Shown piece by piece: positions 3,025 to 29,040 of a stretch of DNA of 64,000 nt. The position numbers were made by a program, and so were the translations under genes. The first letter of the stretch is position 1. The number at the start of each line of letters is the position of its first letter. The stretch lies in assembly GCF_056712565.1 (NCBI RefSeq), contig NZ_CM160072.1, one strand, 5' to 3'. A model generated the notes under the pieces. The model worked only from the letters and a program-made list of their open reading frames with translations. It did not search any database and had not been told where the DNA came from.

Positions 3025-3756
3025 ATGAATCAACCAATACACAATGCTTACTGGTTATCCCGTTTTGAAAGTATTCTCAACAGTGCCCTGGCGCAACACC
3101 GTGCCGTCTCGTTAATCCGGGTGGATTTACGTTTCCCTGAGTATATGCCTGCCACCATCATGGATACCGATTTAGATTCAGCGGTGATTTCTCGTTTTTT
3201 TGCATCCCTGAAAGCAAAAATTCAGGCTTACCAGCGACATAAACGACGTGCCAACAAGCGTGTGCGTGCAACCACTCTGCGTTATTTCTGGTGTCGGGAG
3301 TTTGGCAAGGAAAAAGGCAGGAAACATTATCACGTGATATTACTGCTCAACAAAGATACCTGGTGCTCGCCAGGGGATTTCACCGTTCCTTCTTCGCTGG
3401 CGACGCTGATCCAACTGGCATGGTGCAGTGCTCTGCATCTCGAGCCCTGGCAGGGTAATGGACTGGTTCATTTTTCCAGGCGGACGCCTTTCCGTAAACC
3501 GACATCATCTGATGCTCGCCCTTCTTCCGATGATACGCCTTTGTCGGGTGGATGTTCTGAAACCAGGAAGGCTTCAGACAAAAAGTCTGGTGGATCCGCT
3601 GTGCTCTGGGTCAAGCGTGGTGATGTGGAAGCGATGCAGAAAGCCCGGAACAGAGCCAGTTATCTCGTGAAATATGAGACGAAGCAGCATGACGGTTCCG
3701 GGCAACGTAATTATGGTTGCAGTCGTGGGGTAGGGCGTCTACTGGATGGCAGGTGA
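3025..3756 (+). CDS. YfjJ/YagK-family (inovirus Gp2-like) prophage protein
   Basis: 243 aa ORF; HYHVILLL-type block and overall resemblance to the YfjJ/YagK proteins of CP4-type cryptic prophages; adjacent AlpA-like gene. Confidence 0.5.
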   Translation: MNQPIHNAYWLSRFESILNSALAQHRAVSLIRVDLRFPEYMPATIMDTDLDSAVISRFFASLKAKIQAYQRHKRRANKRVRATTLRYFWCREFGKEKGRKHYHVILLLNKDTWCSPGDFTVPSSLATLIQLAWCSALHLEPWQGNGLVHFSRRTPFRKPTSSDARPSSDDTPLSGGCSETRKASDKKSGGSAVLWVKRGDVEAMQKARNRASYLVKYETKQHDGSGQRNYGCSRGVGRLLDGR

Positions 3757-5590: not shown

Positions 5591-5728
5591 TTAAATAAGT
5601 GATATTGGTTGTCTGGAGATTCTGGGGGCTAGTCTAGTTTTAAAGCGCCCCCTGCCGTATCAGAACTGGGGAATGCTACAGGGTTTGACCTGTTCCTCGA
5701 GGATCGTAGCGGAGCTAGCCATGAAAAA

Positions 5729-6793
5729 ATGATCCAGGCCCGAAATCAGCTTCTTGCTGAAGCGGCGAAAAGTCCAGCGTTAAACATGGTTCGTCCTAAC
5801 GGCATGAACGATGAGCCTCAGTTCCAGATTCTGATTGATGACGAGAAAGTTCAGGCGTTTAAACTGAGCATGAGCGACGTCGACAACATAATGTCAGCAG
5901 CCTGGGGTTCGATGTATGTAAATGATTTTAACGATCGTGGACGGGTGAAAAAAGTCTATATTCAGGGCGAACCCGGCTCACGTATATCACCGCAGGATTT
6001 TGATAAATGGTATGTCCGTAACAGTGATGGCGACATGGTTTCCTTTGCCTCTTTTGCAACAGGCAAATGGATTTATGGCTCACCAAAACTGGAGCAATAT
6101 AATGGTATCTCTGCTGTCGAAATCCTGGGGGAACCGGCACCAGGATACAGTTCCGGGGATGCAATGAAAGCAATTGAGGATATTGCGGCAAGACTTCCCG
6201 AAGGTTTCCATATTTCCTGGACAGGTTTGTCTTTTGAGGAACGACTTTCAGGTTCTCAGGCTCCTGCACTATATGCACTTTCACTGTTGATCGTCTTTCT
6301 GTGTCTGGCTGCACTGTATGAAAGCTGGAGCATTCCTTTCTCGGTCATGCTGGTTGTTCCGCTTGGTGTCCTGGGGGCTGTCTGTGCTACTTTGTTGCGC
6401 GGCCTTGGTAACGATGTCTTTTTCCAGGTCGGTTTATTAACAACAATAGGGCTGTCTGCGAAAAATGCCATACTTATCGTGGAGTTTGCTCGTGAATTGC
6501 ATGAGAAAGAAGGACTAAGCATTAAAGAGGCTGCTGTTGAAGCGGCGAGAGTGAGGTTAAGACCGATAATTATGACTTCGCTGGCATTTGTAATGGGGGT
6601 TATCCCACTGGCTGTCTCGACTGGAGCAAGTTCCGGAAGTAAACATGCCATCGGTACTGGTGTGGTTGGAGGGATGATCACTGCTACGATACTGGCAATC
6701 TTTTATATTCCTCTCTTCTATATGTTAATTGCCGGGTTCTTCAGCCGCAGAAATAAGAAATCATCGGATAAGACTGAAGCTGAGCAATCATAA
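5729..6793 (+). pseudogene. C-terminal third of an RND multidrug efflux permease (AcrB/AcrF-like); 5' two-thirds absent
   Basis: ORF aligns to the last ~350 residues of AcrB ([19 protein letters not shown]..., [20 protein letters not shown]..., MTSLAF) with nothing coding for the N-terminal ~650 aa. Confidence 0.75.
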
Positions 6794-6892
6794 GCATGAG
6801 TAAATATTCAGGTGCAGTAAACAACATACTGCGCCTGAGTAAATGGCTGTTGGGTTGGTACTAAATGCCCCAGAGATATTTCCTGAAATAAG

Positions 6893-7264
6893 ATGTCAAT
6901 GGAGATTTCAACAGTGGTGCGGCACACAAAATTTGCAGCGGAAGAAACCCGCAAACAAATCCTGGATGTGGCAGAGTTCTGCTTTTGTGAGACGGGCTTT
7001 TCGAAGACGACACTGGAGATGATTGCGGCGCGCGCAGGTTGTACTCGGGGGGCCATATACTGGTATTTCAACGAAAAAAAAGATCTTCTGCGACAAGTCA
7101 TCGAGCGGGTACCACTATCATTATTTGATGAGCTTACAGCCATCAAAAATGGGAGAGTTTTTGAACCGGTTAAAGCGATGTATCGTTGCTTATCACGTAG
7201 CCTGATTAAATTACAATATAATGTACACTTACGGAATGTAATTTATATTGTGTTTTTTTTGTGA
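6893..7264 (+). pseudogene. TetR/AcrR-family regulator, N-terminal HTH retained, C-terminus degenerate
   Basis: TetR HTH signature (TTLEMIAARAGCTRGAIYWYFNEKKDLL); ORF is only 123 aa and ends in low-complexity sequence. Confidence 0.55.
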
Positions 7265-7535
7265 AGAATGTCCGGATGATATAAGAATAAATTTCTTACA
7301 AAAAATGGTGGATGTCAATAATTTTGTGAAATTACTATGTTATATTTTCGAAAAAGGTAAGTTATATAGAGAAATATGTTTGGAAATTCGTAGTGAGACT
7401 CTGGCGTTCCTGCTTTTTTCTTTGTTTACGGGGGGGGGCGAAGTTGCATTCTGCAACCTGATAATAAATCCCTTTTCAGAGAGGGTTGCATAGTACTGGA
7501 GTTGACCCAATCAACCTTCACAGGCATCGATAAAA

Positions 7536-7881
7536 ATGAACGCTACTATAAAAAACAGCTCTGATATCAATGAGTTTGCTAAATGGATTGATGAAAATCT
7601 TGAGGTAGAACTCTCAATAAATATTGAGGCAAAAAAAGCTGGATATTCAAAATGGTATTTACAGAGATTGTTTAAACATATCATTGGTATTTCTATTGGT
7701 AGGTATATTAATAAATGCAGCAGAAGAACTACGTTCTACTACTGAATCGGTCACGACTATCACTTTTAAATATCAGTTTGATTTTCAGCAGACATTTACA
7801 AGGGCATTTACTCGCCGCTTTGGTATAGCTCCTATTGCATACCGAAAACTCGCTAAGGAAGAAGTGAGATGGAATAGTTAG
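7536..7881 (+). pseudogene. MarA/RamA/SoxS-like small AraC-family activator, split by a frameshift
   Basis: Two overlapping ORFs (7536..7745, 7624..7881) carry the two halves of a MarA-type double HTH (AGYSKWYLQRLFK... / ...FDFQQTFTRAFTRRFGIAPIAYRK). Confidence 0.55.
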
Positions 7882-8183
7882 TTATGTAAGCGTTATTTAC
7901 TTAAGCGTGGATATATAAGAATGATATTATCAATATGTTGCTCATGAGTTTTTAATAGCATATAGGCTTGTTAACATAGCCCAGCAATATACTTTGCAGT
8001 GGGAGCAGGTATGCATACAGAACAGTGGGCGAGGACGAGCGTCCCTTTTCGAACAAGGTAGCAAAAGAGGAAGAAGAAAGACAAATACAACTGGGCCTGA
8101 AAGGGTAGTGTTTAAGCCCCCTTTCAGGGGGCCGTGTCAAAGCCGCCCGCTATGCAGATGGTTTTTTACTTTATCTGTTAAGC

Positions 8184-8219
8184 AAAAAAATGCCGCGATA
8201 AAGAAATTGTTACCGCGGC
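8184..8219 (-). terminator. Rho-independent terminator after the extended shell-protein gene
   Basis: On the minus strand GCCGCGG...CCGCGGC stem followed by a run of 7 T, ~20 nt past the stop at 8238. Confidence 0.5.
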
Positions 8220-8237
8220 AGCGTCATAGCAATTTAC

Positions 8238-8783
8238 TTATTTTTTCTTGCCGCTGGAACGAGGACCTTTCTTTGCTGCCTCCTGCGGTACATCAGATTT
8301 TGTAGGTTTAGTGTTTTCTATTGAGGGTTTAACTGGTTGATGCTGCTCCACGGACTTCAGCGTTTCATCAGTGACATCCATACAGGATGCGCTGATTGAC
8401 GTATCAAGGTTAACCACCGGGAATGTCTGTGAAGGCGCGTTTTCAGCCTGCAGTGTCGGTTGTGCAGCAGGCACTTCAGGTTGAGGTTCTGCGACGCCGG
8501 CGGTCACTTTAGAGTGAATAATCTGCTCGATATGCTGCGCGGTGCGGGCGATCACCTTATGGGCATACACCTCGCCAACCCGGCTTGCCGCGCTGATGGC
8601 TGCCGCTACCGCCGCGTTAATTGCGCCCACTTCCCCTTCCAGCTTCACGGTCACCATCCCGCCGCCTTTCGTCAATTCATAGCCTACCAGACTAACGTTA
8701 GCGGATTTCATTGCGGCATCGGCGGCTTCTACCGCCGCAGACATCCCGACGGTTTCGATTAAGCCTAAACTTTTCCCAGACAT
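8238..8783 (-). CDS. BMC-H microcompartment shell protein with a long Pro/Gln/Glu-rich C-terminal extension (PduK-like architecture)
   Basis: N-terminus MSGKSLGLIETVGMSAAVEAADAAMKSANVSLVGYE is a canonical BMC (PduA/EutM) domain; AGGAGA RBS before the ATG at 8783; ~90 aa tail follows. Confidence 0.8.
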   Translation of the reverse strand: MSGKSLGLIETVGMSAAVEAADAAMKSANVSLVGYELTKGGGMVTVKLEGEVGAINAAVAAAISAASRVGEVYAHKVIARTAQHIEQIIHSKVTAGVAEPQPEVPAAQPTLQAENAPSQTFPVVNLDTSISASCMDVTDETLKSVEQHQPVKPSIENTKPTKSDVPQEAAKKGPRSSGKKK

Positions 8784-8827
8784 AAATTTCTCCTGTAATA
8801 AATTCAACTGTGCTGCGCGTCGTCGGC

Positions 8828-9979
8828 TTAACGTCCAACGTCTTCGTATAATAGCGCCGCTTTGTCCGTAACTTCCCACGGAAAGCTGTCGCGACCAAAG
8901 TGACCATAGCAGGCTGTTTTACGATAGCGGGGGACCAGCAGATCAAGCGTAGTAATGATGCCGAACACGCTAAGATCGAAATGGCTGTTAACGCCTCTCA
9001 GCAACGCTTCAGATGACACTGTTTGTGTACCGAAGGTGTTAATCCTGACGGAAACAGGGCGGGGCAGGCCGATGGCCCATCCCAACTGGACTTCACAGCG
9101 TGAGGCAAGCCCAGCGGCGACGATGTTTTTCGCCACATAGCGAGCAGCGTAGGCGGCGGAACGATCGACTTTCGACGGATCTTTGCCTGAAAACGCGCCG
9201 CCGCCATGGCAAGCCGCGCCGCCATAGGTATCAACAATAATTTTACGCCCCGTTAGCCCGCAGTCACCCACCGGCCCGCCAATCACAAAACTGCCTGCAG
9301 GGTTCACCAGAAAGCGGGTTTGTGGTGTGAGCCAGTGCGAAGGCATCACAGGTTTAACAATTTCTTCGATGACCGCTTCCCGTAGCGCGTCCAGAGAAAC
9401 GTCAGGGCTGTGTTGGGTAGACACCACAACGGTATCTACTGAATGAACACGATTATCCTGATAGCGCAGGGTAACCTGGCTTTTGGCATCAGGGAGTAAA
9501 AATGGTAACCGTTGGGATTTACGCAACTGCGCCTGGCGCTCCATCAGACGATGGGCGTATACCAGCGTGGCGGGCATCAGTTCCGACGTTTCATCACAGG
9601 CGTAACCGAAGGTGATGCCCTGATCGCCCGCCCCCAGTTCTTCCATCGAGTGGCCGCGAATGCCTTCAGCAATATTGGCGGACTGTTTGCCAAGGATATT
9701 TAATACACAGCAGGTATTGCCATCAAACCCCAATCGCGAATGGTCGTAACCAATCTCTTTTATGGTGTTGCGGACAATCTTCTCAATATCCACGGCGGCA
9801 TGGGTAGATATTTCTCCGGCAACAATAGTGGCACCAGTTTTCACCAAGCATTCACAGGCAACCTTACCCCACGGGTCCTGTAGGAGTATCGCATCCAAAA
9901 TGGCATCAGAAATTTGGTCCGCCATTTTATCGGGATGCCCTTCGGCAACGGATTCGGAGGTAAACAGGTAATCGTTCAA
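8828..9979 (-). CDS. S-adenosylmethionine synthetase paralog (MetK-like), apparent TTG start
   Basis: Full-length collinear MetK signatures ([33 protein letters not shown]) but clearly diverged from housekeeping MetK and not in the metK genomic context. Confidence 0.85.
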
Positions 9980-9985
9980 AGCGAG

Positions 9986-10039
9986 CCCACTTGTTTGGGA
10001 AGTTTATTCCTATCTTAGGATAGGAACCTGACAAGTGGG
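9986..10039 (-). promoter_or_regulatory. Long hyphenated palindrome immediately 5' of the MetK-paralog start codon
   Basis: CCCACTTGT...ACAAGTGGG outer arms around a perfect inner inverted repeat TTCCTATC-TTAG-GATAGGAA; lies 7-60 nt upstream of the start. Confidence 0.35.
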
Positions 10040-10107
10040 CGTAAACTATCTTGCGGGCGTGTTGGACTATTTTGCTTTCATTATCGGGCCAATGCAAAAT
10101 CACGCCA

Positions 10108-11163
10108 TCACCGTGTAATTCCCGGGGACACGACTTTTCGATAATCAGAGGGGGTCATGCCAGTATCTTTTTTGAAGATGCGGCAAAAATAGTTTGAATC
10201 CTGGTATGCCAGTTCCAGCGCAATGGTATTTACTTGTAAGTCACTGAACCGCAATAACGATTTGGCGATAGTAATTTTACGCGTGGCAATATAGTTCGAA
10301 AACCCGAACCCGGTAATTTTCTTAAAGGTACGGCTCAAATAGCAGGCACTGACAAACGATTTTGCTGCCACGTCATCGAGCGTCAAGTTTCTGAGAATAT
10401 TTTTCTCAATATGGAATTTCGCTCGTTCGATAAAATCGATATTGCCTGTATAGCCTTTTAATGCGTAATCAAACAGCTCTTCGCTAATGGTCAGCAGGCT
10501 GATCATGATGCGGAAATAGCGGCTTTCCATCATGCCATACTGGTTGATGTCTTTGATCAGCGCGGCGACTTTACGGTTAGTCGGCATTAACTTTTCCCCT
10601 TTGGCGGTCATATACTGGCTAACTATTTCCAGAAAATCGATCACGTCTTTGCGCTTATCCTCTTCTATCATATCCACCGGACAGGCACCGTTGAGCGTGT
10701 CAAAAATAAAGTTGTGCCACTGGGTGTAATCGCAATCGTCTATCATGGCGAACACTTTCTGTTTTAGGGCGCGGGATTTTTCATTTTCTCCTTCGTCGAA
10801 TGCTAGGGTTTTTTTGATGGTGTCGGTCAAGATACATTTTTTCACTGGTTTGAGCAGATAATCATCCACTTTAAGGTTGTACATGCTGCGTACTATATCA
10901 AAGTCATCATTGGCCGTGATTACGATGATTTTAGTATCGCTGTTTTTTTTCTTCAGATATTCAATCACCTGTTTACCGTTCGGCAACGGAATATTAATGT
11001 CCACTAAGATCATATCGATTTGACTCAGTTGGTCAATTAAGTGAATCGCTTTTTTACCGGTTGAGGCTTCATGGATCGCAGCGTTTTCCACACACTGGGA
11101 GATAATCTGCCGCAGGGATTCTAATTCGATGGGCTCATCTTCAACGATAACAATGGTAAACAT
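10108..11163 (-). CDS. Two-component response regulator, receiver + AraC-type HTH output domain
   Basis: N-terminal receiver (IVEDEP..., DMILVDINIP, KIIVITAND) and C-terminal AraC HTH (SACYLSRTFKKITGFGFSNYIATRKI). Confidence 0.8.
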   Translation of the reverse strand: MFTIVIVEDEPIELESLRQIISQCVENAAIHEASTGKKAIHLIDQLSQIDMILVDINIPLPNGKQVIEYLKKKNSDTKIIVITANDDFDIVRSMYNLKVDDYLLKPVKKCILTDTIKKTLAFDEGENEKSRALKQKVFAMIDDCDYTQWHNFIFDTLNGACPVDMIEEDKRKDVIDFLEIVSQYMTAKGEKLMPTNRKVAALIKDINQYGMMESRYFRIMISLLTISEELFDYALKGYTGNIDFIERAKFHIEKNILRNLTLDDVAAKSFVSACYLSRTFKKITGFGFSNYIATRKITIAKSLLRFSDLQVNTIALELAYQDSNYFCRIFKKDTGMTPSDYRKVVSPGITR

Positions 11164-11179
11164 ATGTCCTTTTCCTGTA

Positions 11180-12442
11180 TCAGGCTTCCTGCATTGGGAA
11201 CCGAAGTTTAATGGTTGTACCCATCCTGGGTTTGTTAGGGCTCATTATTTCCAAGCCATAGCTCTCGCCAAATAACAACTTCAATCTATTTTTTATGTTG
11301 TTAATGCCAATACTGCCTTTTTGCAATTTTTGGTCGCCTGATAAAATGCGATTAATGGTATCTGGTGCGATGCCGTCGCCATTGTCAGTGACTTCAATAA
11401 TCACGTTCAGGCCATCGTCCGTGGCACGGATCAGCAGATGACTATTGCTATCCCTTGGCTCCACTACGTAGTTAAAGAAGTTTTCCACCAGCGGTTGCAG
11501 GATCAAAAACGGGCAGACTACATCCAGATATTTTTCCGGGATATCGCACAGGTAATCGAAACGGTCTCTCATACGCACTTTTTGGATCGACATATAGTTG
11601 TTGACGTAATTTATTTCATTACGCAGAGTAATCAGGCCGTGACTATTTTTACGTAACAAATAGCGCATCATGTCAGAGAAATCGTGCACCATTGTTTCGG
11701 TACGCTGCGCATCTTCAAGAAAAGCTAACCGGCCAATGGTATTTAATACGTTAAATAAAAAGTGTGGATTTATCTGATAAGAGAGCGCTTTAAATTCAGC
11801 TTCATGTAGTGAGCGTTCTATCTCTACACGTTTTCTTAACTCATTAGCCAGTGCAAGATCCTTTTTACGAAGTTCGCGTTGGATATTATTGGTGTGCGCT
11901 TGTTCGACCAGATAAGACGATACGTGTAGTAACGTCGAGGCAGTAGACTCAAAACGCTCATACGGCATGCGACGTGTATTCTGGTGCAAATTAATTAACC
12001 AAGGATTATCTTTCCAGACGTCATTATTATTCAGAATATAGGAAATGCTCTGTTCTTTCTCTTCTTCGACTTTTACCTGACCGGAAATAAAAGCACCGAG
12101 ATAATGATCGTTAATCATGATTGGGACAGCGAATTCGACAAAACCGCAGTGGCAGCGATAAACCACCGGTTTGCGAGCGTGCATCGCGGCACGGCCACCA
12201 GCGTTGTCGCTTTCATAACAGTGGTGCGCCAGTGTCGGGTTGAGACGCGAACGCATGCAGAAGTCTGAAAAACCGCTGGGCTTAGTGACCGGGATACCAT
12301 TCTCATCCACAACCACGAGCGCGATCATCATTGATTTTGAAAAGTTGTCCTGCAGGGTCTGAAGGCGTTTTACATCCAAAAACTCATTTAATTTGTATTT
12401 ATTCTTCATACTTTCAGCCTGCATTTTTAAAAACATAATCAT
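11180..12442 (-). CDS. Sensor histidine kinase with N-terminal PocR ligand-binding domain (LytS/YesM-type kinase core)
   Basis: PocR-like block (FSDFCMRSR...HHCYESD...[15 protein letters not shown]...GQV), then His-kinase region ([12 protein letters not shown]) and HATPase (DNGDGI...G.G). Confidence 0.8.
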
Positions 12443-12674
12443 ATATTTATAAATAATTTGTCGCGAAAAAATTGAAATGGATCACAGCAACAAAAACAGC
12501 TCCGGCTCTGAAAGTAATGCTTCGGTTATTTGCAAGGGATACTCCTTTTCAAACCTTGCTGAACCAGTGCAGATACACAGGGAAACGTATACCAGAACTG
12601 CCACAATACAAACGCCAGTTACTGGCGATACGAATGGAATGACGAGGCAGTCTGTCAGAAAGCCCCACATGAAC

Positions 12675-14515
12675 GATCACCACCTACATAGGAGGTGTTT
12701 TAAAATTGATCGAGTAGGAGGCGGGATCACTCCCGCCGTCCTCTCACACCACCGTACATGCGGCTCCGCATACGGCGGTTCATGTTAACACTGGAACTGC
12801 CTCTGCTGTTCCAGCAGTGATATCAGACCCTGCCTGCTGAACCACGCATTCTTTATCGCCTGATTCATATGGCTTGACTCTGAGTTCCACCATGGCCCGT
12901 GGTTGTTGTACGCTGAGATCATCGCCCTGTCCTTACTCAGTCCTGCTCTTTGCAGGTTCTTTGCCCGGGTTAGCGGTCTCTTCCACTGCCGCTACAACAA
13001 GCAACGCAGTTTCCGTTTGATCCAGCCATCCAGCTCCTCCAGCACTCCTCTGACCTCCGTCAGCCTGAAGTAGCTTATCCATCCACACAGCACTGGTGTC
13101 AGAGCATTGATTGTCGCTTTCACTGATTTGCTCCGGTTTCCCGTCGTCAGACTGTGGACTTTCTCCTTCAGCCTGTTCACGCTCGTCAGGGCTATCTTCA
13201 GCTTCGCCTGTTTGTGCCATGTCACACTGTACCCGAGGAACTTCCGATCCCACGGGCGCGCCACCGCGCTCTTCTTCTCATTCACCTTCAGTTTGTTCTC
13301 CACGAACGCCCTGATGTTCTTCAGCAGATGGTCGCCCGCTTTCCGGCTGCTTACGTAGATGTTGCAGTCGTCTGCGTAGCGGCAGAAGCTGTGTCCACGA
13401 CGCTCCAGTTCTTTATCCAGTTCATCCAGCAGGATGTTCGACAGTAACGGCGACAGTGGGCCGCCCTGCAGCATGCCCGCCTGCCGTTTCTCCCTTTGCC
13501 CGTCTTTAACCATTTCCGCTTTCAGGTAGCGGCGTATCAGTCACAGCACCCGCCTGTCCTTTATCGTTCTGGCCAGACGCGTCATCAGGAGTCTGTGATC
13601 CACCCGGTCGAAGAACTTCTCCAGATCCATATCCACCACCCACCGTTTGCCACCCCGTATGTAACGCTGTGCCTGTTGCACCGCCTGCTGGATAAGCCTG
13701 TCCACCACCGTCGGGATGCCTGAGGTTCTCACGCCGCCATCCGGCTTCGGGATATCCATCCGGCGTATTGTCCGCGGCTGGTAGTTTCCGTCAATCAATG
13801 CCTGCCTGACGCTGCGCCAGTTCTTCTTCAGCCACGGTTTCAACTCCGCCACGCTGAGGTTATCCACCCCCGCCGTGCCTTTGTTTTCCACCACGCGCTG
13901 ATAAGCCAGCATCAGGTTTTCTCTCGTTATCACCGCTTCCATCGTCAGCGGCACTTCCGCTTTCGTTTGCCCACCCGCCGCCGTGCTGATTTCAGCGCCA
14001 TCATGCAGCCCTGACGGATACTGTCCGTCTCCTCTGCCGCTGGTCGCAGTGGCCTGCGCTTGTGCTTCATTAATCATCATCGGGTTCGGATGTCCTAATC
14101 ACAGTTAATCATGTTCGGCCCTTCATGCTGCCGGTTTTGCAGCACTACTACGGCGTCGGCTGACTTCTGCCGCCCCATCCCGGCGCCTCACGGCGCCGGT
14201 AGCACACTGGCAGGGCGACAGATCTCCCGGGGTAATTCACGCGACTTTCCTGCTTATGCCTGTCGGCTTTACGTCACAGCGTTCCGTGTGAGTATCGGGC
14301 TTTGGTGATTAGTGCCACCTTACCCTGCTGCGCCGCCTTAACCGCTTCCTGTTCGTCAGGCCAGCATTTTGCATCCAGCTTCCTTCAGATTTCACCTCGC
14401 GATGAACACCCTTGCCTTCCGCTAACACTTCCCCTCACCGGGTGTGTGGAGGACTTTCACCTCTTAGTCGTTCTTCTGCCACCACAGTTGAAGAACAGCG
14501 CCAGTCACGGCGCAC
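12675..14515 (-). mobile_element. Group II intron (~1.8 kb) inserted just downstream of the microcompartment operon terminator; ends approximate
   Basis: Minus-strand GTGCG at 14515..14511 8-9 nt after the terminator T-tract; RT/maturase ORF inside; domain V-like hairpin at ~12745..12775 (CCGTATGCGG / CCGCATGTACGG with 2-nt bulge) and GNRA-capped helix after it. Confidence 0.65.
12784..14080 (-). pseudogene. Group II intron reverse transcriptase/maturase, disrupted by one frameshift (~13515-13540) and one in-frame TAG (12992-12994)
   Basis: RT blocks 0-2 in ORF 13541..14080 (AGVDNLSVAEL, IPKPDGGVRTSGIPTVVDRLIQQA, DMDLEKFFDRVDH); RT4-5 in ORF 12992..13513 (QGGPLSPLLSNILLD, FCRYADDCNIY); maturase tail continues in the same frame past the TAG (QWKRPLTRAKNL...LISLLEQQRQFQC). 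Confidence 0.7.
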
Positions 14516-14519
14516 ATAA

Positions 14520-14552
14520 CAAAAAGCCAGCAGGCAGACACTGCTGGCTTTT
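14520..14552 (-). terminator. Rho-independent terminator of the microcompartment structural operon
   Basis: GCCAGCAG-loop-CTGCTGGC stem followed by TTTTTGTT on the minus strand, 14 nt after the stop at 14566. Confidence 0.6.
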
Positions 14553-14565
14553 TGTTATGGCGGGA

Positions 14566-15471
14566 TTAAAACAGGGGAACCAAGGTAAATAATCCAATGG
14601 TCGCCAACAGATTAATCATCGTGGTCATAATGGTGATGACCATCGCCGGCGGGTCAATATGTGTATCGCCGTGGATCAGGAAGATACGCGACATCAGTTC
14701 ACCCAATATCGCGCAAATTATGCCAACGATAGCAGCCCAAATCAGGCTACCTGATGGCACCGCTACCAACGCGGCAGGCAGCGAAATATGATGTGACACC
14801 GGTACCTGAGTATTGAAATGCAGGAAAATCAGTGAGAACGCGGAAATACCAAACGCCAGCAGCGCGCCGTTGCCGCCAAACTTCAGGCCTAAAAAGCCTG
14901 CCATCAAGCCAATACCCAAGCCCAGCACGGAAAGCTGCGGAATGCGGCTATGGTAAGGTATCCAGCACTTATCCTGCGGCGGATAGCAGTGACGAATTCC
15001 CTGCTCCGGTTTTCCAAACAGGCCAGTTTTACCGAAAACCAGACGCGAGACCACGCCAGAAATCACCACGGTTAGTGCCACGGTATCGGTCCAAGCATTG
15101 CCGGACGGGAAGGCCGGAATCTGGTTCAACCCCCAGGCGATGATGTAACCAACCGCCCCAAAAACCCCGCCTACCAGCAGCACATCGTAAGCCGCCAGAC
15201 CGCTCAACCCGGCAGTGATATCACGCCCGGAACCCAGCTTGCCTTTCTTCGCTGCATACGCCGTCGCCGCAACCCCAGCGGCAAAGCCGCCGGTGTGCGG
15301 GCCAAACAGTCCAAACGGAAAAGTAATAAAGTCCGATGATGCTCCGGTAATAATTTGCACTACCGTCATGGCGATAACCAGAAGCCCAACGAATTCAAAC
15401 GCCGCCAGCGCGCCAACAGCCGCACCAAATATGCCGCCGCCGAAGGCAACTACAATATCTAAGCTATTCAT
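14566..15471 (-). CDS. Gly-rich polytopic membrane protein, last gene of the microcompartment operon; putative substrate/product facilitator of unknown family
   Basis: 301 aa with ~8 hydrophobic Gly/Ala-rich segments; no NPA (aquaporin) or obvious EutH/FocA signature. Confidence 0.5.
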   Translation of the reverse strand: MNSLDIVVAFGGGIFGAAVGALAAFEFVGLLVIAMTVVQIITGASSDFITFPFGLFGPHTGGFAAGVAATAYAAKKGKLGSGRDITAGLSGLAAYDVLLVGGVFGAVGYIIAWGLNQIPAFPSGNAWTDTVALTVVISGVVSRLVFGKTGLFGKPEQGIRHCYPPQDKCWIPYHSRIPQLSVLGLGIGLMAGFLGLKFGGNGALLAFGISAFSLIFLHFNTQVPVSHHISLPAALVAVPSGSLIWAAIVGIICAILGELMSRIFLIHGDTHIDPPAMVITIMTTMINLLATIGLFTLVPLF

Positions 15472-15607: not shown

Positions 15608-16525
15608 TTAACCGCCGATATGGCAGTTAAAACCTAAGGATTCAACCATTGCTTTTAACTCTGCCATTTGGGCTTCTTCGATACTTTTTGTATCGCCCAT
15701 CGGATACTGGCGACCAAGCAGATTATATTTATTTTCACCGAAGCTGTGATAAGGCAATAAGTGAATGGTATCGACGTTCTGCATCAGGCGGGCGAACTCC
15801 GCAATATTATGGATTTCCTGCGAATTGTCATTCACTCCTGGGATCACAGGAATACGCACAACCACTTTGGTTAAAAAGGAGATGCGCAGCAGATTCTCCA
15901 GAATCACTCTGTTATTCACGCCGGTGTTGCGCTCATGGATTTCCGGATCGATGGCTTTAATATCGGTCAGAGCAAGATCGACATAGGGAAATATCTCATC
16001 AATCACCGCTTTGGTGGTGAAGCCGCTTGTTTCAATAGCGGTGTGCCAGCCTTTGGCTTTACAGGCTTTAAGCAGCTCGCGGGCAAATTCCGGCTGCGCC
16101 AGCGGTTCACCACCGGACAGGGTAATCCCGCCGCCTGAACGCCGGTATAAATTCTCTTCTTTTTCCAGTTCGCGCATCACTGCCGTTACCGACATACGCT
16201 TGCCCTTCATTTCCAGCGCACGGGTAGGGCAAATCTCAGTACATTTCCCACACTGAATACAGCGGTCGCGATTGATAAACCAGGCATTAGTAGTGGAAAG
16301 AGCCTGTTGTGGGCAAGCATCAATACATTTTCCACAGCGGATGCAATCATTCTTTTTAAATAATAACTCTGGGCTGTGACGTTGTGATTCAGGATTACTA
16401 CACCATTTGCAGGACAGCGGGCAGCCTTTAAAAAAAGGAATGGTTCGAATGCCTGGACCATCATGCAAAGAATAGCGTTGAATATTAAATATGACGCCTT
16501 CGGTTTCGTACTCAACTTTATTCAT
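15608..16525 (-). CDS. Glycyl-radical enzyme activating enzyme (radical SAM, with ferredoxin-like insert)
   Basis: GCPLSCKWCSNPE radical-SAM CxxxCxxC site near the N-terminus, plus two additional Cys clusters (CIRCGKCIDACP, CIQCGKCTEICP) typical of non-PFL activases. Confidence 0.85.
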   Translation of the reverse strand: MNKVEYETEGVIFNIQRYSLHDGPGIRTIPFFKGCPLSCKWCSNPESQRHSPELLFKKNDCIRCGKCIDACPQQALSTTNAWFINRDRCIQCGKCTEICPTRALEMKGKRMSVTAVMRELEKEENLYRRSGGGITLSGGEPLAQPEFARELLKACKAKGWHTAIETSGFTTKAVIDEIFPYVDLALTDIKAIDPEIHERNTGVNNRVILENLLRISFLTKVVVRIPVIPGVNDNSQEIHNIAEFARLMQNVDTIHLLPYHSFGENKYNLLGRQYPMGDTKSIEEAQMAELKAMVESLGFNCHIGG

Positions 16526-16633: not shown

Positions 16634-19186
16634 TTACGACAGTTGTTGCTCAGTACGGCTGATTATGTCGTCCTGAACTTCTTTCGCTAAAACTACCCAC
16701 TGGGCGCTATAGCCCGCAACGCGTACCACCAGATCCTGATGTTGCTCAGGATTTTTCTGGGCTTCGATCAAAGTGTTGCGGTCGATAACGTTAAATTGAA
16801 CGTGCATCCCTTTCTTATCGAAGTAGTGACGTATCAGGCCGCTGAAGTTGCGCAGACCGTTCTCGCCAGCCAAAGAAGACGGCAGGAATTTCTGATTATA
16901 GAGCGTACCGTTGGAGGCGATAAAGTGATCCAGTTTGGCAACTGAGTTGGCTGCGGCGGTTGGGCCAAGGGTGTCTTTACCCTGACGTGGAGATACGCCA
17001 TCCGCCAACGGCTCTTTCGCCAGACGGCCATCCGGCAGTGCGGCAACGTCTTTACCAAACAGCACGTTCGCAGACACCGGATAGATACCAGCCTGGAACT
17101 GGCCACCGCGCGGGTTGGTATATTTCTCAACTTCCTGGCAGTAGATCAGCGCACATTTACGCGCTACTAAATCCACGTCATCGATGTCGTTACCGAAGCA
17201 CGGTGTGTTTTCCAGAATACGACGGATCTCCTCGTGACGGGACATAGTGCCGGATTGCACCGGTGCTGCACTGCCGGAAGTCAGCTGGCGATAAACTTCG
17301 TTTTTAATCGCTGCCGGATCCAGCGCGCCATGCTGTTCAATGATGCGTTTCACCACATCGTAGATATCCTGCTCGTTGAGCGAGGATTTCGCCGCTGGAG
17401 TGTGCGGGTTCGCACCCACCGGATAACCGAAGTTGGCGTCCAGTGCGCTTTTCAGTTCGCTCAAAGACAGTTTACGATCTTCGAATACCTGTTTCTGGAT
17501 GGCATAGACGGAGTCGCCGGTATCGGCTACGCCGAATGCTTGCGGCCCAGTAAAGTTGTAAATCGCCCCGCCTTCCTGGAGAGATTTACCACGGCCGATA
17601 CAGTCGTCGACCAGTGCTGATAGGAACGGCAGCGGGCAGCGTTCGCCGTGGGCAATATCCACGCTGTTACAGGCTTCAACCAGTTGATGAACGAAGTGCG
17701 CCATCTGTTTCTGGAACGCGGTGTAGAAGTCCTCCATGCTGGTGAACTGAGTCAGTTCGCCAGTCACTGGGCCTAGCTGTTTATTGCCAACGCGACCGTT
17801 GTTCAGGGTGATTTCCAGCACTTTTGCAACGTTAAAGAACGCGGCGTCATGCCAGCCCTCGGTGCGATGCGGTGCCTGCGGCTCTACGCAGCCGATGATA
17901 CAGTAATCACGCGCATCACGCAGCGAAATGCCACGGTTCTGCAGCGCCGGGATGATTACTTCATCGTTGTACATTGCCGGAACGCCCAGGCCCATACGCA
18001 CCAGCTCGCAAGCGCGATACAGAAACTCATCCGGAGTACCCTGCCATACGCGGATTGAGAAGGATGGCTGCGGCAGACGCACATGGGCAGTCGCTTCCAT
18101 ACACATGTAGCTCAGATCGTTAGTTGCGTCGCGACCGTCTTCTGTCTGGCCGCCACAGCACAGGTTCTGGAACACTGCGTAACCGGCAAACGCCTGGGCA
18201 GAGACTTCGTCACGCGTTTTGTTAATGTCGTTAAGCTTGATCCAGCAGCAATCCACCAGTTCCTGCGCGAATTCACGCGAGATAGATTTGTCCGACTCCA
18301 GATACGGGTACATATACTGGTCGAAACGCCCCGGGGAGATAGAATGACCGCTGGATTCAATCTGTAACATGCTCTGAATAAACCAGAATGTCTGGCATGC
18401 TTCCCAGAATGTGGTAGCACCGTATTCCGGCACGCGAGTACAGTTTTGAGCAATCTGCTCCAGTTCGCGTTTACGGGTCGGATTGCTCTCCTGCTGCGCC
18501 AGACGGGATGCTTCTTCAGCGTAACGATGGGCGAAACGGATCGCTGCGTTATAACTGATCAGCACCGCATTATAGAACTGTTCTTTCTTTATATATCCTG
18601 GTTCAGTGCGATCTAATGATTCCAAGGCACGGCTAACTTCATTAATGATACCACGGAAACCAATTTTCAGCACTTTACCGTAGTCAACACTGACATGACC
18701 GACGCCCCCGAAGAAGTAGTTACCAACAGTGAATACACCGCTCGCCATACTCTCTTTAGTGCCTTCTGACATGTAAGATGCCGCCAGAGCACTGGTAGTT
18801 TTACCCGGCCAGTATTTAAATGCTTCATGAAGCTCCTGAGCAGTCTTTTTCGGGATAACAAACGGGTCGGCAATACGGTGTTCCATAGTCTCAAACTCTT
18901 TTTCCACCCAGTCGTAGGAGAACTCAGGGCAGATTTCAGTTGAGCGAGGATTAATAGTTACCGCTCCAACGATTAATTCGTCTGGGCGAATTGTTACCGG
19001 TAATTGGTTAAAGATTTTTTCCACCACTTTAGCACGACGCATAATCGCGGGCAGTTGTTCTGTTTCTTTATATGCTTCGGTTGCTAACACCGCGCGTTCT
19101 GATTCCACATACGGCTTCGCCGTCAGGATCATATTTCTCAGTCTTACAACACGGTCTGTCGGATTAGAAAAGCCTTTCTCTAACAT
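16634..19186 (-). CDS. Glycyl radical enzyme, 850 aa; most likely B12-independent 1,2-propanediol dehydratase (choline TMA-lyase not excluded)
   Basis: C-terminal glycine-radical motif RVAGYSA; active-site GCVEP loop; size and neighbours (activase, PduL, PduP-like, kinase, Fe-ADH, shell genes) fit the dehydratase/lyase class rather than PFL. Confidence 0.85.
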   Translation of the reverse strand: MLEKGFSNPTDRVVRLRNMILTAKPYVESERAVLATEAYKETEQLPAIMRRAKVVEKIFNQLPVTIRPDELIVGAVTINPRSTEICPEFSYDWVEKEFETMEHRIADPFVIPKKTAQELHEAFKYWPGKTTSALAASYMSEGTKESMASGVFTVGNYFFGGVGHVSVDYGKVLKIGFRGIINEVSRALESLDRTEPGYIKKEQFYNAVLISYNAAIRFAHRYAEEASRLAQQESNPTRKRELEQIAQNCTRVPEYGATTFWEACQTFWFIQSMLQIESSGHSISPGRFDQYMYPYLESDKSISREFAQELVDCCWIKLNDINKTRDEVSAQAFAGYAVFQNLCCGGQTEDGRDATNDLSYMCMEATAHVRLPQPSFSIRVWQGTPDEFLYRACELVRMGLGVPAMYNDEVIIPALQNRGISLRDARDYCIIGCVEPQAPHRTEGWHDAAFFNVAKVLEITLNNGRVGNKQLGPVTGELTQFTSMEDFYTAFQKQMAHFVHQLVEACNSVDIAHGERCPLPFLSALVDDCIGRGKSLQEGGAIYNFTGPQAFGVADTGDSVYAIQKQVFEDRKLSLSELKSALDANFGYPVGANPHTPAAKSSLNEQDIYDVVKRIIEQHGALDPAAIKNEVYRQLTSGSAAPVQSGTMSRHEEIRRILENTPCFGNDIDDVDLVARKCALIYCQEVEKYTNPRGGQFQAGIYPVSANVLFGKDVAALPDGRLAKEPLADGVSPRQGKDTLGPTAAANSVAKLDHFIASNGTLYNQKFLPSSLAGENGLRNFSGLIRHYFDKKGMHVQFNVIDRNTLIEAQKNPEQHQDLVVRVAGYSAQWVVLAKEVQDDIISRTEQQLS

Positions 19187-22810: not shown

Positions 22811-23094
22811 AACGACCTCAATATTTCCGATAGAAAGAAAACGTGCACAGAGGAATAGCAATCTACGGATTCACCCATGTGCATTAATTATTTAATTATC
22901 ATAATGCTAAGGTTATTCAGACAAAATGTTTTGCGCGTCAGTGGGACTATCTTGCTTTTGCATTCCCGCAATTGACAATAAAATCCACCCGAGGTTTGTA
23001 ATAAAAGATCTGCGTTTAAATTTCCTTGCAAAATAGCCCCGCTCTGAATAGCAATCATAATTACTGTTAAAACTGTCGTATTTTTGCCAATTAG

Positions 23095-28592: not shown

Positions 28593-29040
28593 GTGTAACT
28601 ACCTTAATCATGGTAAACGACCAAATTTGATGTCGTTAACCTAACATGGCGATTTTTTTAATGGACTGAGGATGTTTGTGCAGGTGAAGGATTATTTTGC
28701 GGTATTGTTTTGCCTTGAGCAAAAAAGTCCTTTTCTAGGAAATACCTAAAATCTGATACAGTCAAACTCAATATTTATTGTCAGAGAATGAATAAAAGCG
28801 GGGTGTTTTTTTGCCACTGCACTGCTTCAGGAATGTATTCACCCCTCATAAAGGCTTCAATGACTCTCCGCCATGGCAAACATGCCATAGGGGGAGATTT
28901 TCAGATAATGATAATAATGTTCGCCCACATCCGATTGTAAATGGATCAGAAAAATGGCCGCGTATTGCCCTGCTGAATGTGGATTACGTCACCTGTTTTG
29001 AATTGCCTTTCTGCTTACCCGGACACCACAACTGATTGCT

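What the first reader, a model, noticed from the sequence alone, without database searches (positions are those of the whole stretch)
8238..9979. Divergent SAM-synthetase paralog and an extended shell protein placed after the regulators of the microcompartment locus
A full-length MetK-like gene with intact catalytic motifs, but clearly different from housekeeping MetK and using an apparent TTG start, sits between the two-component genes and an extra BMC-H gene with a ~90 aa Pro/Gln-rich tail. The GRE activase consumes S-adenosylmethionine each time it installs the glycyl radical, so a dedicated, possibly compartment-linked SAM supply is an attractive but untested idea. Both genes lie outside the main structural operon, beyond the terminator and intron, implying separate transcriptional control.
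Basis: partly seen in the sequence, partly recalled or inferred. Interest (0 to 1): 0.6.

Follow-up and report, generated by a model that had tools for sequence, protein, structure and literature searches.

The report
Known grpR/grpS genes of E. coli
These two genes are grpR, a second and divergent S-adenosylmethionine synthetase, and grpS, a shell protein with a long floppy tail; both are already named accessory genes of the glycyl-radical propanediol microcompartment locus of pathogenic E. coli, so the finding is real but not new.

Summary
Window 8828-9979 (-) is a full-length MetK-type SAM synthetase with a TTG start. It is 64% identical to E. coli MetK, with no gaps and every checked active-site residue intact. 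Window 8238-8783 (-) is a BMC-H shell protein with an 89-residue tail predicted to be disordered.

The window is 100% identical to E. coli B2-type chromosomes. RefSeq already annotates these genes there as grpR (methionine adenosyltransferase) and grpS (shell hexamer) of the grpA-grpS locus. The SAM-supply idea was published in 2014 for GRM3 loci.

What this analysis adds:
- GrpR belongs to a monophyletic clade under strong purifying selection.
- It always sits in a four-gene grpP-grpQ-grpR-grpS module, seen in 8 genera.
- It has no extension that could serve as an encapsulation peptide.
- A conserved two-part direct repeat lies upstream of grpR and grpH. This suggests grpRS has its own promoter dependent on GrpQ.
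- The GrpS tail carries conserved short motifs.

Verdict: already known, low interest. GrpR's enzyme activity and physiological role remain untested.

The parts
8828..9979 (-). grpR: methionine adenosyltransferase (SAM synthetase) paralog, 383 aa, TTG start
   Evidence: ORF. TIGR01034 at 588 bits against a cutoff of 309. 64% identical to K-12 MetK with no gaps. Active-site residues and signature motifs intact. RefSeq WP_001001005.1, 'propanediol utilization system methionine adenosyltransferase GrpR'.
8238..8783 (-). grpS: BMC-H shell protein, 181 aa. BMC domain is about residues 1-92 (nt 8508-8783); disordered tail is residues 93-181 (nt 8241-8507).
   Evidence: PF00936 at residues 5-80. PDB matches cover only residues 1-105. 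AF2 gives the domain pLDDT about 90 and the tail 37-54 with no secondary structure. Tail motifs IPVVN, SC[ML]D and a basic C-terminus are conserved over 100 orthologs. RefSeq WP_000015571.1, GrpS.
8191..8220 (-). Intrinsic-terminator-like hairpin plus T-run directly after grpS; likely the end of the transcription unit
   Evidence: Best-scoring terminator-like site in the scan: 11 pairs followed by TTTTTTT. Sequence.
10043..10075 (-). Two-part direct repeat GCAAAATAGTCC-N9-GCAAGATAGTTT (12-mers 21 bp apart) in the grpQ-grpR spacer; putative GrpQ operator
   Evidence: Conserved at the orthologous place in 8 of 8 genera. The pattern occurs only twice in the 64-kb window, against 0.19 expected.
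10012..10017 (-). TAAGAT, a -10-like hexamer starting 36-37 nt after the start of the proximal repeat. This is an inferred promoter element of grpR.
   Evidence: CTAAGAT or CTAAAAT is conserved in the aligned spacers. The promoter assignment is inference, not shown.
10108..12442 (-). grpP (11180-12442, PocR-domain histidine kinase) and grpQ (10108-11163, response regulator with AraC-type HTH). These are the first two genes of the conserved P-Q-R-S module.
   Evidence: Family matches. RefSeq names. The module is contiguous in 7 of 7 other genera.
14516..14553 (-). Intrinsic terminator after grpO (AGCCAGCAG-7 nt-CTGCTGGCT followed by TTTTT); end of the main grpA-grpO operon
   Evidence: Sequence. 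Sub-threshold Rfam Thr_leader hits at this position reflect the hairpin.
12709..14515 (-). Group II intron inserted right after the grpO terminator. Its 5' end is GTGCG at 14515. Its reverse transcriptase/maturase is split into two ORFs (13541-14080 and 12992-13513).
   Evidence: Rfam RF02001 (139.7 bits), RF01998 and RF00029. TIGR04416 fragments. The same insertion is present in 447 E. coli genomes.
22923..22955 (-). Second copy of the two-part repeat (GCAAGATAGTCC-N9-GCAAAACATTTT), in the grpG-grpH spacer
   Evidence: Conserved upstream of the grpH ortholog in 6 of 6 loci that reach it.
28689..28730 (-). Single copies of the same 12-mer upstream of grpA: GCAAAATAATCC at 28689-28700 (-) and GCAAAAAAGTCC at 28719-28730 (+)
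   Evidence: GCAAAANANTCC gives 3 hits in the window against 0.24 expected. All three are upstream of grpR or grpA.

Best explanation
These are grpR and grpS, the last two genes of the known grp (glycyl radical propanediol, GRM3-type) microcompartment locus of E. coli phylogroup-B2-like strains.

GrpR is a functional SAM synthetase (ATP + L-methionine -> SAM + PPi + Pi). It belongs to an old paralog lineage that is distinct from housekeeping MetK and travels with this locus. Its most likely role is to raise SAM supply when the locus is induced. The radical-SAM activase GrpN consumes one SAM each time it installs the glycyl radical on the diol dehydratase GrpM. GrpR most likely works in the cytosol, because it has no encapsulation peptide.

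GrpS is a minor hexameric shell protein. Its tiling residues are canonical. Its disordered C-terminal tail should project from the concave face, which faces the cytosol.

The two genes are co-transcribed as the distal part of a conserved grpP-grpQ-grpR-grpS module that is separate from the grpA-grpO operon. They probably have their own activator-dependent promoter in the grpQ-grpR spacer, controlled by the same regulator (GrpQ) as the structural genes.

Shown here: the genes' identity, intact motifs, the second metK, clade structure, synteny, purifying selection, the conserved repeat, and the predicted disorder of the tail. Inferred: enzyme activity, the SAM-supply role, cytosolic location, GrpQ binding to the repeat, and the orientation of the tail.
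For: Identity: the region is 100% identical to E. coli ATCC 11775, S88 and APEC O1, where it is annotated grpP/Q/R/S.

MAT membership: TIGR01034 at 588 bits. The three MAT Pfam domains are present in all homologs. 64% identical to MetK with no gaps. 17 of 17 functional residues and both signature motifs are intact. The closest solved structures are E. coli MetK entries.

Second copy: metK is annotated at 895440-896594 of the same genome, and a metK-like match occurs in 5425 of 5426 genomes.

Distinct lineage: the GrpR clade is monophyletic in 100% of 40 neighbour-joining bootstraps. Members are 69-91% identical to E. coli GrpR but only 59-66% identical to E. coli MetK.

Selection: dN/dS is 0.059 between E. 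coli and Atlantibacter, similar to grpP and grpQ.

Linkage: the P-Q-R-S genes are contiguous beside glycyl radical enzyme, activase and shell genes in Vibrio, Raoultella, Rahnella, Superficieibacter, Enterobacter, Pectobacterium and Atlantibacter.

Regulation: the conserved two-part repeat lies upstream of grpR and grpH. Published data show grpR expression depends on GrpPQ with 1,2-propanediol under anaerobiosis (PMC11724981).

The SAM-supply rationale was published for GRM3 loci (PMC4207490).

GrpS: BMC domain. K26, R80 and the GGG pore loop are invariant or nearly so. The tail is predicted to be disordered.
Against: No biochemical or genetic result available to me shows that GrpR makes SAM or is needed.

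From memory of the abstract of Lundin et al. 2020 (J Bacteriol 202:e00017-20), which is not held in the library: only 8 of the 19 grp genes were required for 1,2-propanediol fermentation. I infer, but did not verify, that grpR and grpS were not among them.

A glycyl radical is catalytic and long-lived, so SAM demand for activation should be small compared with the cellular pool. That weakens a simple 'demand' rationale.

grpR has a weak start (TTG, with GTG or TTG in 6 of 8 genera) and a poor Shine-Dalgarno sequence, which suggests low expression.

The published grpR qRT-PCR used a grpP/grpQ deletion located directly upstream, so polar effects are not excluded.

The GrpQ footprint reported on fimS resembles the repeat only loosely.
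Confidence: 0.75

Rival explanations
1. GrpR is packaged inside, or docked on, the microcompartment and delivers SAM locally. One route would be tethering by the GrpS tail encoded by the neighbouring gene.
For: grpR and grpS are adjacent in 8 of 8 genera. The GrpS tail carries conserved short motifs (IPVVN, SC[ML]D, basic end) with no assigned partner. Its dN/dS of 0.295 shows that it is not free of constraint.
Against: GrpR has no N- or C-terminal extension or insertion relative to MetK in E. coli. The short C-terminal extensions in other genera are not conserved. In an AF2 model of GrpR-linker-GrpS tail, the tail stayed at pLDDT 26-33 with no structure. That is a weak negative, because the model was a monomer with only 8 paired rows.
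Confidence: 0.1
2. GrpR is a redundant copy whose value lies in its regulation, not in compartment function. It would provide MAT expression that escapes normal metK control during anaerobic growth on 1,2-propanediol, or it would have altered kinetics or feedback.
For: All catalytic residues are unchanged. Eight positions differ in a fixed way from housekeeping MetK: T44C, V107I, L122I, M123T, T228A, Y301W, P338V and A357C. The gating-loop sequence also differs. grpR has its own conserved upstream repeat and a weak start codon.
Against: This overlaps heavily with the best explanation and differs mainly in emphasis. No kinetic data exist. The strict linkage to glycyl radical enzyme loci argues that the benefit is tied to the activase.
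Confidence: 0.12
3. grpR/grpS are decaying hitchhiker genes with no current function in E. coli.
For: They are apparently dispensable for 1,2-propanediol fermentation (recalled from Lundin 2020 and not verified). The start codon is weak. The E. coli locus is rearranged and carries a degenerate intron.
Against: dN/dS is 0.059 for grpR and 0.045 for the GrpS domain. The ORFs are intact and at least 99% identical in 535 E. coli genomes. The genes are conserved in 8 genera with all active-site residues intact.
Confidence: 0.03

Closest known systems
GrpR / GrpS of the E. coli CFT073 grp locus (Lundin et al. 2020, J Bacteriol 202:e00017-20; RefSeq WP_001001005.1 and WP_000015571.1)
   Same: These are the same genes. 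The DNA is 100% identical to annotated grpP-grpQ-grpR-grpS in many B2 strains. CFT073 c4548 is GrpS.
   Different: Nothing differs. The window is simply another copy of this locus.
SAM synthetase as an ancillary gene of GRM3 microcompartment loci (Axen, Erbilgin, Kerfeld 2014, PMC4207490)
   Same: A MetK homolog is encoded beside the glycyl radical enzyme, activase, PocR two-component pair, DJ-1/PfpI peptidase, EutJ, flavoprotein and DUF336. The proposed role is to make SAM for the activase.
   Different: That paper made a gene-content statement only. The clade structure, the fixed P-Q-R-S module, the lack of an encapsulation peptide and the upstream repeat come from this analysis.
Housekeeping E. 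coli MetK (WP_001062128.1; PDB 1RG9, 1FUG, 7LL3)
   Same: Same fold family, length and active-site residues, with a gapless alignment.
   Different: Only 64% identical. GrpR forms a separate clade, has eight fixed substitutions and five additional cysteines, and differs in genomic context and presumably in regulation.
Extended BMC-H proteins PduK and EutK
   Same: A canonical BMC-H domain followed by a C-terminal extension.
   Different: The EutK tail is a folded helix-turn-helix domain (from my own knowledge). PduK carries a tetracysteine motif (Ferlez 2019). The GrpS tail has no Pfam domain, is predicted to be disordered, and has a single conserved Cys within SC[ML]D.

Membership tests
Methionine adenosyltransferase (MetK/MAT; TIGR01034; PF00438+PF02772+PF02773) | Full-length match above the curated family cutoff, with the three-domain architecture | tested here: met
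   588.3 bits against a cutoff of 309.4, covering residues 5-377 of 383. The three MAT Pfam domains are recorded for the 99%-identical cluster and all homologs.
Methionine adenosyltransferase (MetK/MAT; TIGR01034; PF00438+PF02772+PF02773) | Signature motifs GAGDQG...GY and G[GA]G[ASC]FS.K[DE], plus the catalytic and binding residues known from E. coli MetK (H14, D16, K165, D238, R244, K245, K265, K269, D271 and others in literature numbering) | tested here: met
   Both motifs are present, and 17 of 17 checked residues are identical to K-12 MetK. The residue list comes from my own knowledge of the E. coli MetK literature.
Methionine adenosyltransferase (MetK/MAT; TIGR01034; PF00438+PF02772+PF02773) | Catalyses SAM formation from ATP and methionine | not testable with these tools
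   This needs an enzyme assay or complementation of a metK mutant.
GrpR: SAM synthetase linked to a GRM3/Grp locus | Encoded within a locus holding a glycyl radical diol dehydratase, its activase and BMC shell genes | tested here: met
   GrpM, GrpN, GrpI (PduB-like), GrpH, GrpE and the rest lie in window 8238-28592.
GrpR: SAM synthetase linked to a GRM3/Grp locus | Orthologous to other locus-linked copies rather than to housekeeping MetK | tested here: met
   The clade is monophyletic with 100% bootstrap. All 7 sampled non-E. coli members sit in P-Q-R-S modules. I did not test whether the GRM3-linked MetKs of Alphaproteobacteria or Firmicutes belong to the same clade.
BMC-H shell protein (PF00936) | A single, non-permuted BMC domain with the conserved edge lysine and arginine and a pore loop | tested here: met
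   PF00936 at E = 1e-22 over residues 5-80. PduA, CcmK and CsoS1 structures match residues 1-105. K26, R80, G40 and G42 are invariant in 56 orthologs. The AF2 domain has pLDDT about 90.
BMC-H shell protein (PF00936) | Assembles into hexamers and is incorporated in the shell | not testable with these tools
   This needs purified microcompartments or a structure.
Encapsulation-peptide-bearing microcompartment cargo | A terminal extension (or insertion) of about 15-20 residues forming an amphipathic helix, set off by a linker and absent from non-compartment homologs | tested here: not met
   GrpR residues 1-382 align to MetK residues 1-382 without gaps. The C-terminal extensions of 8-14 residues in some genera are not conserved.
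PduK/EutK-type extended BMC-H | A C-terminal extension carrying a folded DNA-binding domain (EutK) or a multi-cysteine Fe-S motif (PduK) | tested here: not met
   The tail has no Pfam domain, no PDB match, pLDDT of 37-54 with no secondary structure, and a single conserved Cys.

The most novel reading that the evidence does not exclude
The GrpS tail is a cytosol-facing docking arm rather than a passive spacer. Its conserved IPVVN and SC[ML]D motifs and its basic C-terminus would recruit a partner to one class of shell tile. The partner could be GrpR, the activase's reduction system, the GrpO/MIP channel or the membrane. The invariably adjacent grpR-grpS pair would then form a shell-associated SAM or cofactor delivery station. 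The single conserved cysteine per chain, six per hexamer, could also bind a metal or an Fe-S cluster.
Probability: 0.08. Interest if true: 0.6.

Novelty: already known. Interest (0 to 1): 0.2.

Why it matters
How glycyl-radical microcompartments obtain SAM and reducing power for activation, and how they dispose of the by-products, is still open. No one has shown what a locus-encoded MAT adds when the cell already has MetK. The locus also matters clinically, because GrpPQ affects virulence in uropathogenic E. coli (PMC11724981).

As a genome-scan finding, though, this is a re-discovery of annotated, named genes and of a hypothesis published in 2014. The modest new leads from this analysis are:
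- the conserved putative GrpQ operator upstream of grpR and grpH;
- the fixed P-Q-R-S module;
- the GrpS tail motifs;
- the clade-specific substitutions in GrpR.

Tried and rejected
1. The genome-contig scan with GrpR was swamped by housekeeping MetKs. Only 2 of 80 loci were GrpR-type, and the rest served as an outgroup. I therefore could not test whether the GRM3-linked MetKs of Alphaproteobacteria or Firmicutes share the GrpR clade.

2. The first tree script timed out. I repeated it with 37 sequences and 40 bootstraps. The position of the GrpR clade among proteobacterial MetKs is unresolved, with 47.5% support.

3. Lundin 2020 and Zarzycki 2015 are not held in the library. Statements about deletion phenotypes rest on my memory of the abstract and are marked as such.

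4. I first suspected loss of a catalytic arginine (GGAACHGGG in GrpR against GGMARHGGG in MetK). Counting residues showed that the catalytic R244/K245 lies in GLTGRK, which is intact. The R257C position is variable within the clade.

5. Rfam found no riboswitch or leader in the grpQ-grpR spacer. It found only the intron and sub-threshold Thr_leader hits on the grpO terminator.

6. The 8-bp palindrome TTCCTATC/GATAGGAA upstream of the TTG is specific to E. coli. Only its CTAAGAT core is conserved.

7. The published GrpQ footprint on fimS does not align convincingly with the repeat.

8. The AF2 fusion test for docking of the GrpS tail on GrpR was negative.

9. The generic sigma-70 scan found no promoter in the spacer. 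That is expected for an activator-dependent promoter with a poor -35 element.
Full report
**1. What is there**

ORF listing and translation show two adjacent minus-strand genes.

- The first is a 383-aa ORF at 8828-9979 that begins with TTG.
- The second is a BMC-domain ORF ending at 8238. Its best start is the ATG at 8783, which follows an AGGAG ribosome-binding site and gives 181 aa.

The first protein scores 588 bits against NCBIfam TIGR01034 (metK), whose cutoff is 309. The second matches only BMC-H families.

The neighbouring genes, all on the minus strand, are:

| Gene | Window coordinates | Product |
|---|---|---|
| grpQ | 10108-11163 | Response regulator with AraC-type HTH |
| grpP | 11180-12442 | PocR-domain histidine kinase |
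| (intron ORFs) | 12992-14080 | Two fragments of a group II intron reverse transcriptase/maturase |
| grpO | 14566-15471 | Permease |
| grpN | 15608-16525 | Glycyl-radical activase |
| grpM | 16634-19186 | Glycyl radical enzyme |

Beyond these lie a DJ-1/PfpI protein, an aldehyde dehydrogenase, a PduB-like shell protein, propionate kinase, EutJ and others.

**2. Identity of the locus**

Megablast of 8000-12500 gives 100% identity to the chromosomes of E. coli ATCC 11775, S88, APEC O1 and many others. In all, 543 of 5426 complete genomes match, 535 of them at 99% or more.

RefSeq annotates the four genes as follows:
- grpP: propanediol utilization sensor histidine kinase.
- grpQ: response regulator.
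- grpR: 'propanediol utilization system methionine adenosyltransferase GrpR'.
- grpS: 'propanediol utilization system shell hexameric protein GrpS'.

The annotated region shows the whole grpA-grpS cluster, with the same TTG start for grpR and the same ATG start for grpS.

The locus was named and genetically dissected in CFT073 by Lundin et al. 2020. That paper is cited in PMC11724981 and PMC13210347 but is not itself held in the library.

Axen et al. 2014 listed S-adenosylmethionine synthetase among the conserved ancillary genes of GRM3 loci. [quoted passage not shown]

**3.

(a) *Divergent but intact.* GrpR and K-12 MetK align over 382 residues with 64% identity and no gaps. Seventeen residues known from E. 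coli MetK structure and enzymology are all identical, as are both MAT signature motifs. The substrate-gating loop differs in sequence.

(b) *TTG start.* An in-frame TAA lies 27 nt upstream with no other start codon in between (sequence). The alignment to MetK begins at residue 1. Orthologs start at the same position, with these start codons:

| Start codon | Genera |
|---|---|
| TTG | E. coli, Rahnella, Atlantibacter |
| GTG | Raoultella, Superficieibacter, Enterobacter |
| ATG | Vibrio, Pectobacterium |

A weak start codon is thus a recurrent feature.

(c) *Second metK.* A sensitive blastn search with grpR finds two places in ATCC 11775 and a metK-like match of about 65% identity in 5425 of 5426 genomes. 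In ATCC 11775 the housekeeping metK is annotated at 895440-896594, between galP and yqgD/speA. Its protein accession, WP_001062128.1, is the same as K-12 MetK.

(d) *Tail.* The tail is 89 residues, with Pro the commonest residue at 12%. It is really a mixed P/A/S/K/V/T/E/Q low-complexity segment.

(e) *Terminator and intron.* The sequence after the grpO stop codon has three features.
- It forms a 9-bp GC-rich hairpin followed by TTTTT (14516-14553).
- The group II intron 5' consensus GTGCG begins at 14515.
- Rfam finds intron domains at 14118-14406 and the D5/D6 region at 12709-12780.

**4. Evolution of GrpR**

The 120 best database homologs are all 70-99% identical to GrpR. They come from Enterobacterales (Atlantibacter, Leclercia, Silvania, Buttiauxella, Pectobacterium, Brenneria, Rahnella, Raoultella, Klebsiella, Enterobacter) and from Vibrio. 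Every one is therefore closer to GrpR than E. coli's own MetK is.

A neighbour-joining tree used 16 such proteins and 21 housekeeping MetKs, including K-12 MetK. The GrpR group is monophyletic in 100% of 40 bootstraps and sits on a long stem. Its placement among the housekeeping sequences is unresolved.

| Comparison | Identity |
|---|---|
| GrpR-clade members vs E. coli GrpR | 69-91% |
| GrpR-clade members vs E. coli MetK | 59-66% |
| Housekeeping MetKs of other Gammaproteobacteria and of cyanobacteria vs E. coli MetK | 70-77% |

Eight positions differ in a fixed way between the two groups: T44C, V107I, L122I, M123T, T228A, Y301W, P338V and A357C. E. coli GrpR has nine cysteines where K-12 MetK has four. 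Within the clade, C44 and C357 are fixed or nearly so, C128 is found in 13 of 16 members and C257 in 10 of 16.

Between E. coli and Atlantibacter, dN/dS for grpR is 0.059, compared with 0.035 for grpP and 0.05 for grpQ. GrpR is therefore an old paralog maintained by selection, not a recent duplicate or a decaying copy.

**5. Synteny**

I examined seven other genera: Vibrio EJY3, Raoultella, Rahnella, Superficieibacter, an Enterobacter MAG, Pectobacterium and Atlantibacter. In every one, the histidine kinase, response regulator, MetK and extended BMC-H genes are contiguous and in that order.

In six of the seven, the block converges on the main operon, tail to tail with the channel gene. In Vibrio it lies upstream of the main operon. 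Only in E. coli is it co-directional and downstream, separated from the main operon by the terminator and intron.

P-Q-R-S is therefore an independent transcription module, and the E. coli arrangement is derived.

**6. A conserved cis element**

Aligning the grpQ-grpR spacers revealed two 12-mers 21 bp apart. In E. coli they read GCAAAATAGTCC-N9-GCAAGATAGTTT, at 10043-10075.

- A relaxed two-part pattern hits the 64-kb window exactly twice: here and in the grpG-grpH spacer at 22923-22955. About 0.19 hits are expected by chance.
- It hits the orthologous positions in 8 of 8 loci for grpR and in 6 of 6 loci for grpH.
- Single copies of GCAAAANANTCC occur only upstream of grpR and upstream of grpA, where there are two copies. 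That is 3 hits against 0.24 expected.
- A conserved CTAAGAT/CTAAAAT starts 36-37 nt after the start of the proximal repeat.
- If that hexamer is the -10 element, the repeats centre near -43 and -64. This is the usual geometry for AraC-family activators; that statement rests on my knowledge of the family and is an inference here.

I therefore propose that grpRS has its own GrpQ-dependent promoter.

This fits the report that grpR mRNA falls in a grpP/grpQ mutant with 1,2-propanediol under anaerobiosis (PMC11724981). That deletion lies directly upstream of grpR, however, so polar effects cannot be excluded. The GrpQ footprint published for fimS resembles the repeat only loosely.

**7. GrpS**

- The BMC domain is canonical. 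PDB matches to PduA, CcmK, CsoS1 and EutM cover residues 1-105 only.
- Pfam finds one BMC domain.
- K26, R80 and the GGG pore loop are invariant or nearly so in 56 orthologs.
- AF2 with that alignment gives pLDDT of about 90 for the domain. Residues 90-181 score 37-54 and have no secondary structure.

All orthologs carry a tail of variable length, with a median of 86 residues, rich in P, A and E. Embedded in it are three conserved elements:
- IPVVN, conserved at 81-92% per position.
- SC[ML]D, with the Cys at 93%.
- A basic C-terminus, with net charge of +3 or more in 97% of orthologs.

dN/dS is 0.045 for the domain and 0.295 for the tail.

In solved shells the BMC-H termini lie on the concave face, which faces the cytosol. 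This is from my knowledge of the 2017 HO-shell structure. The tail therefore probably projects outward, which is an inference.

**8. Encapsulation**

GrpR has no extension or insertion relative to MetK. The short C-terminal extensions seen in some genera are not conserved.

I modelled GrpR joined by a linker to the GrpS tail, using 8 paired rows plus 31 rows covering only the MetK part. The tail stayed at pLDDT 26-33. This is only a weak negative, but nothing supports a compartment-resident or shell-tethered GrpR.

**9. Verdict**

Both the genes and the SAM-supply hypothesis are already known.

The best-supported mechanism has two parts.
- GrpR is a cytosolic MAT induced through GrpQ. It tops up SAM for the activase GrpN.
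- GrpS is a minor shell tile with a disordered, outward-facing tail.

Both sit in a conserved regulatory and accessory module. GrpR's activity, whether it is needed, and the function of the GrpS tail all remain experimentally open.

Noticed in passing
window 12709-14553 (-): The group II intron starts (GTGCG at 14515) immediately after the grpO terminator hairpin. As far as I recall, this is the insertion habit described for bacterial class C introns; I did not test the intron's class. Its reverse transcriptase/maturase is split into two ORFs (13541-14080 and 12992-13513). The window copy is about 93 bp shorter than intact ltrA-bearing copies elsewhere in E. coli (1806 against 1899 bp, hit H28). 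The same insertion is present in 447 genomes, and a few strains carry a further deleted version.
   Followed up: partly
window 8238-12442 compared with L003-L006, L070, L086, L087: The grpP-Q-R-S block is co-directional with the main operon only in E. coli. In 6 of 7 other genera it converges on the main operon, and in Vibrio it lies upstream. This implies an inversion or re-insertion in the E. coli lineage, next to the intron.
   Followed up: partly
window 10043-10075, 22923-22955, 28689-28730: A conserved two-part 12-mer direct repeat with 21-bp phasing lies upstream of grpR and grpH, with three phased copies upstream of grpH in several genera. Single copies lie upstream of grpA. It is a candidate GrpQ operator that I did not find described in the papers I could read.
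   Followed up: yes
window 8241-8507 (GrpS residues 93-181): The tail, predicted to be disordered, contains conserved short motifs across about 100 orthologs: IPVVN, SC[ML]D with a 93%-conserved Cys, and a basic C-terminus. No partner is known.
   Followed up: partly
window 8828-9979 (GrpR): The GrpR clade has eight fixed substitutions relative to housekeeping MetK. It also has extra cysteines: C44 in 15 of 16 members, C357 in all 16, C128 in 13 of 16 and C257 in 10 of 16. Their meaning is unknown.
   Followed up: partly
window 14566-15471 (grpO) compared with L003-L005, L086: E. coli, Atlantibacter and Superficieibacter carry a 301-aa GrpO permease (PF25928 DUF7973 in Atlantibacter) at the position where Raoultella, Rahnella, Pectobacterium and Vibrio carry a MIP-family channel. 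This looks like a non-homologous replacement of the presumed substrate channel.
   Followed up: no
window 5648-7881 (+): Downstream of grpS lie gene remnants: an N-terminally truncated RND efflux permease (5648-6793 in RefSeq; ORF 5729-6793), a TetR-family gene (6893-7264) and two short AraC/HTH fragments (7536-7881). Further left are island genes, including an inovirus Gp2-family protein (3025-3756). This marks the edge of a mosaic genomic island beside cadCBA.
   Followed up: no
database proteins P0122, P0124, P0002: Annotation variants exist. CFT073 c4548 is GrpS called from the upstream GTG (213 aa). One E. coli record has a 299-aa ORF with a MetK C-terminal domain fused to a BMC domain. 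Some grpR calls are 424 aa long because a 1-nt difference (CCC to CC, near 9994-9996) joins an upstream frame.
   Followed up: no
window 14457-14598: The sub-threshold Rfam Thr_leader hits on both strands (37 and 27 bits against a gathering score of 55) are simply the bidirectional grpO terminator hairpin, not a leader.
   Followed up: yes
window 10108-12442 compared with 8238-9979: grpP and grpQ have 43% G+C, whereas grpR and grpS have 53% and most structural genes have 51-54%. GC3 values are similar across all of them. The module is therefore compositionally uneven.
   Followed up: no
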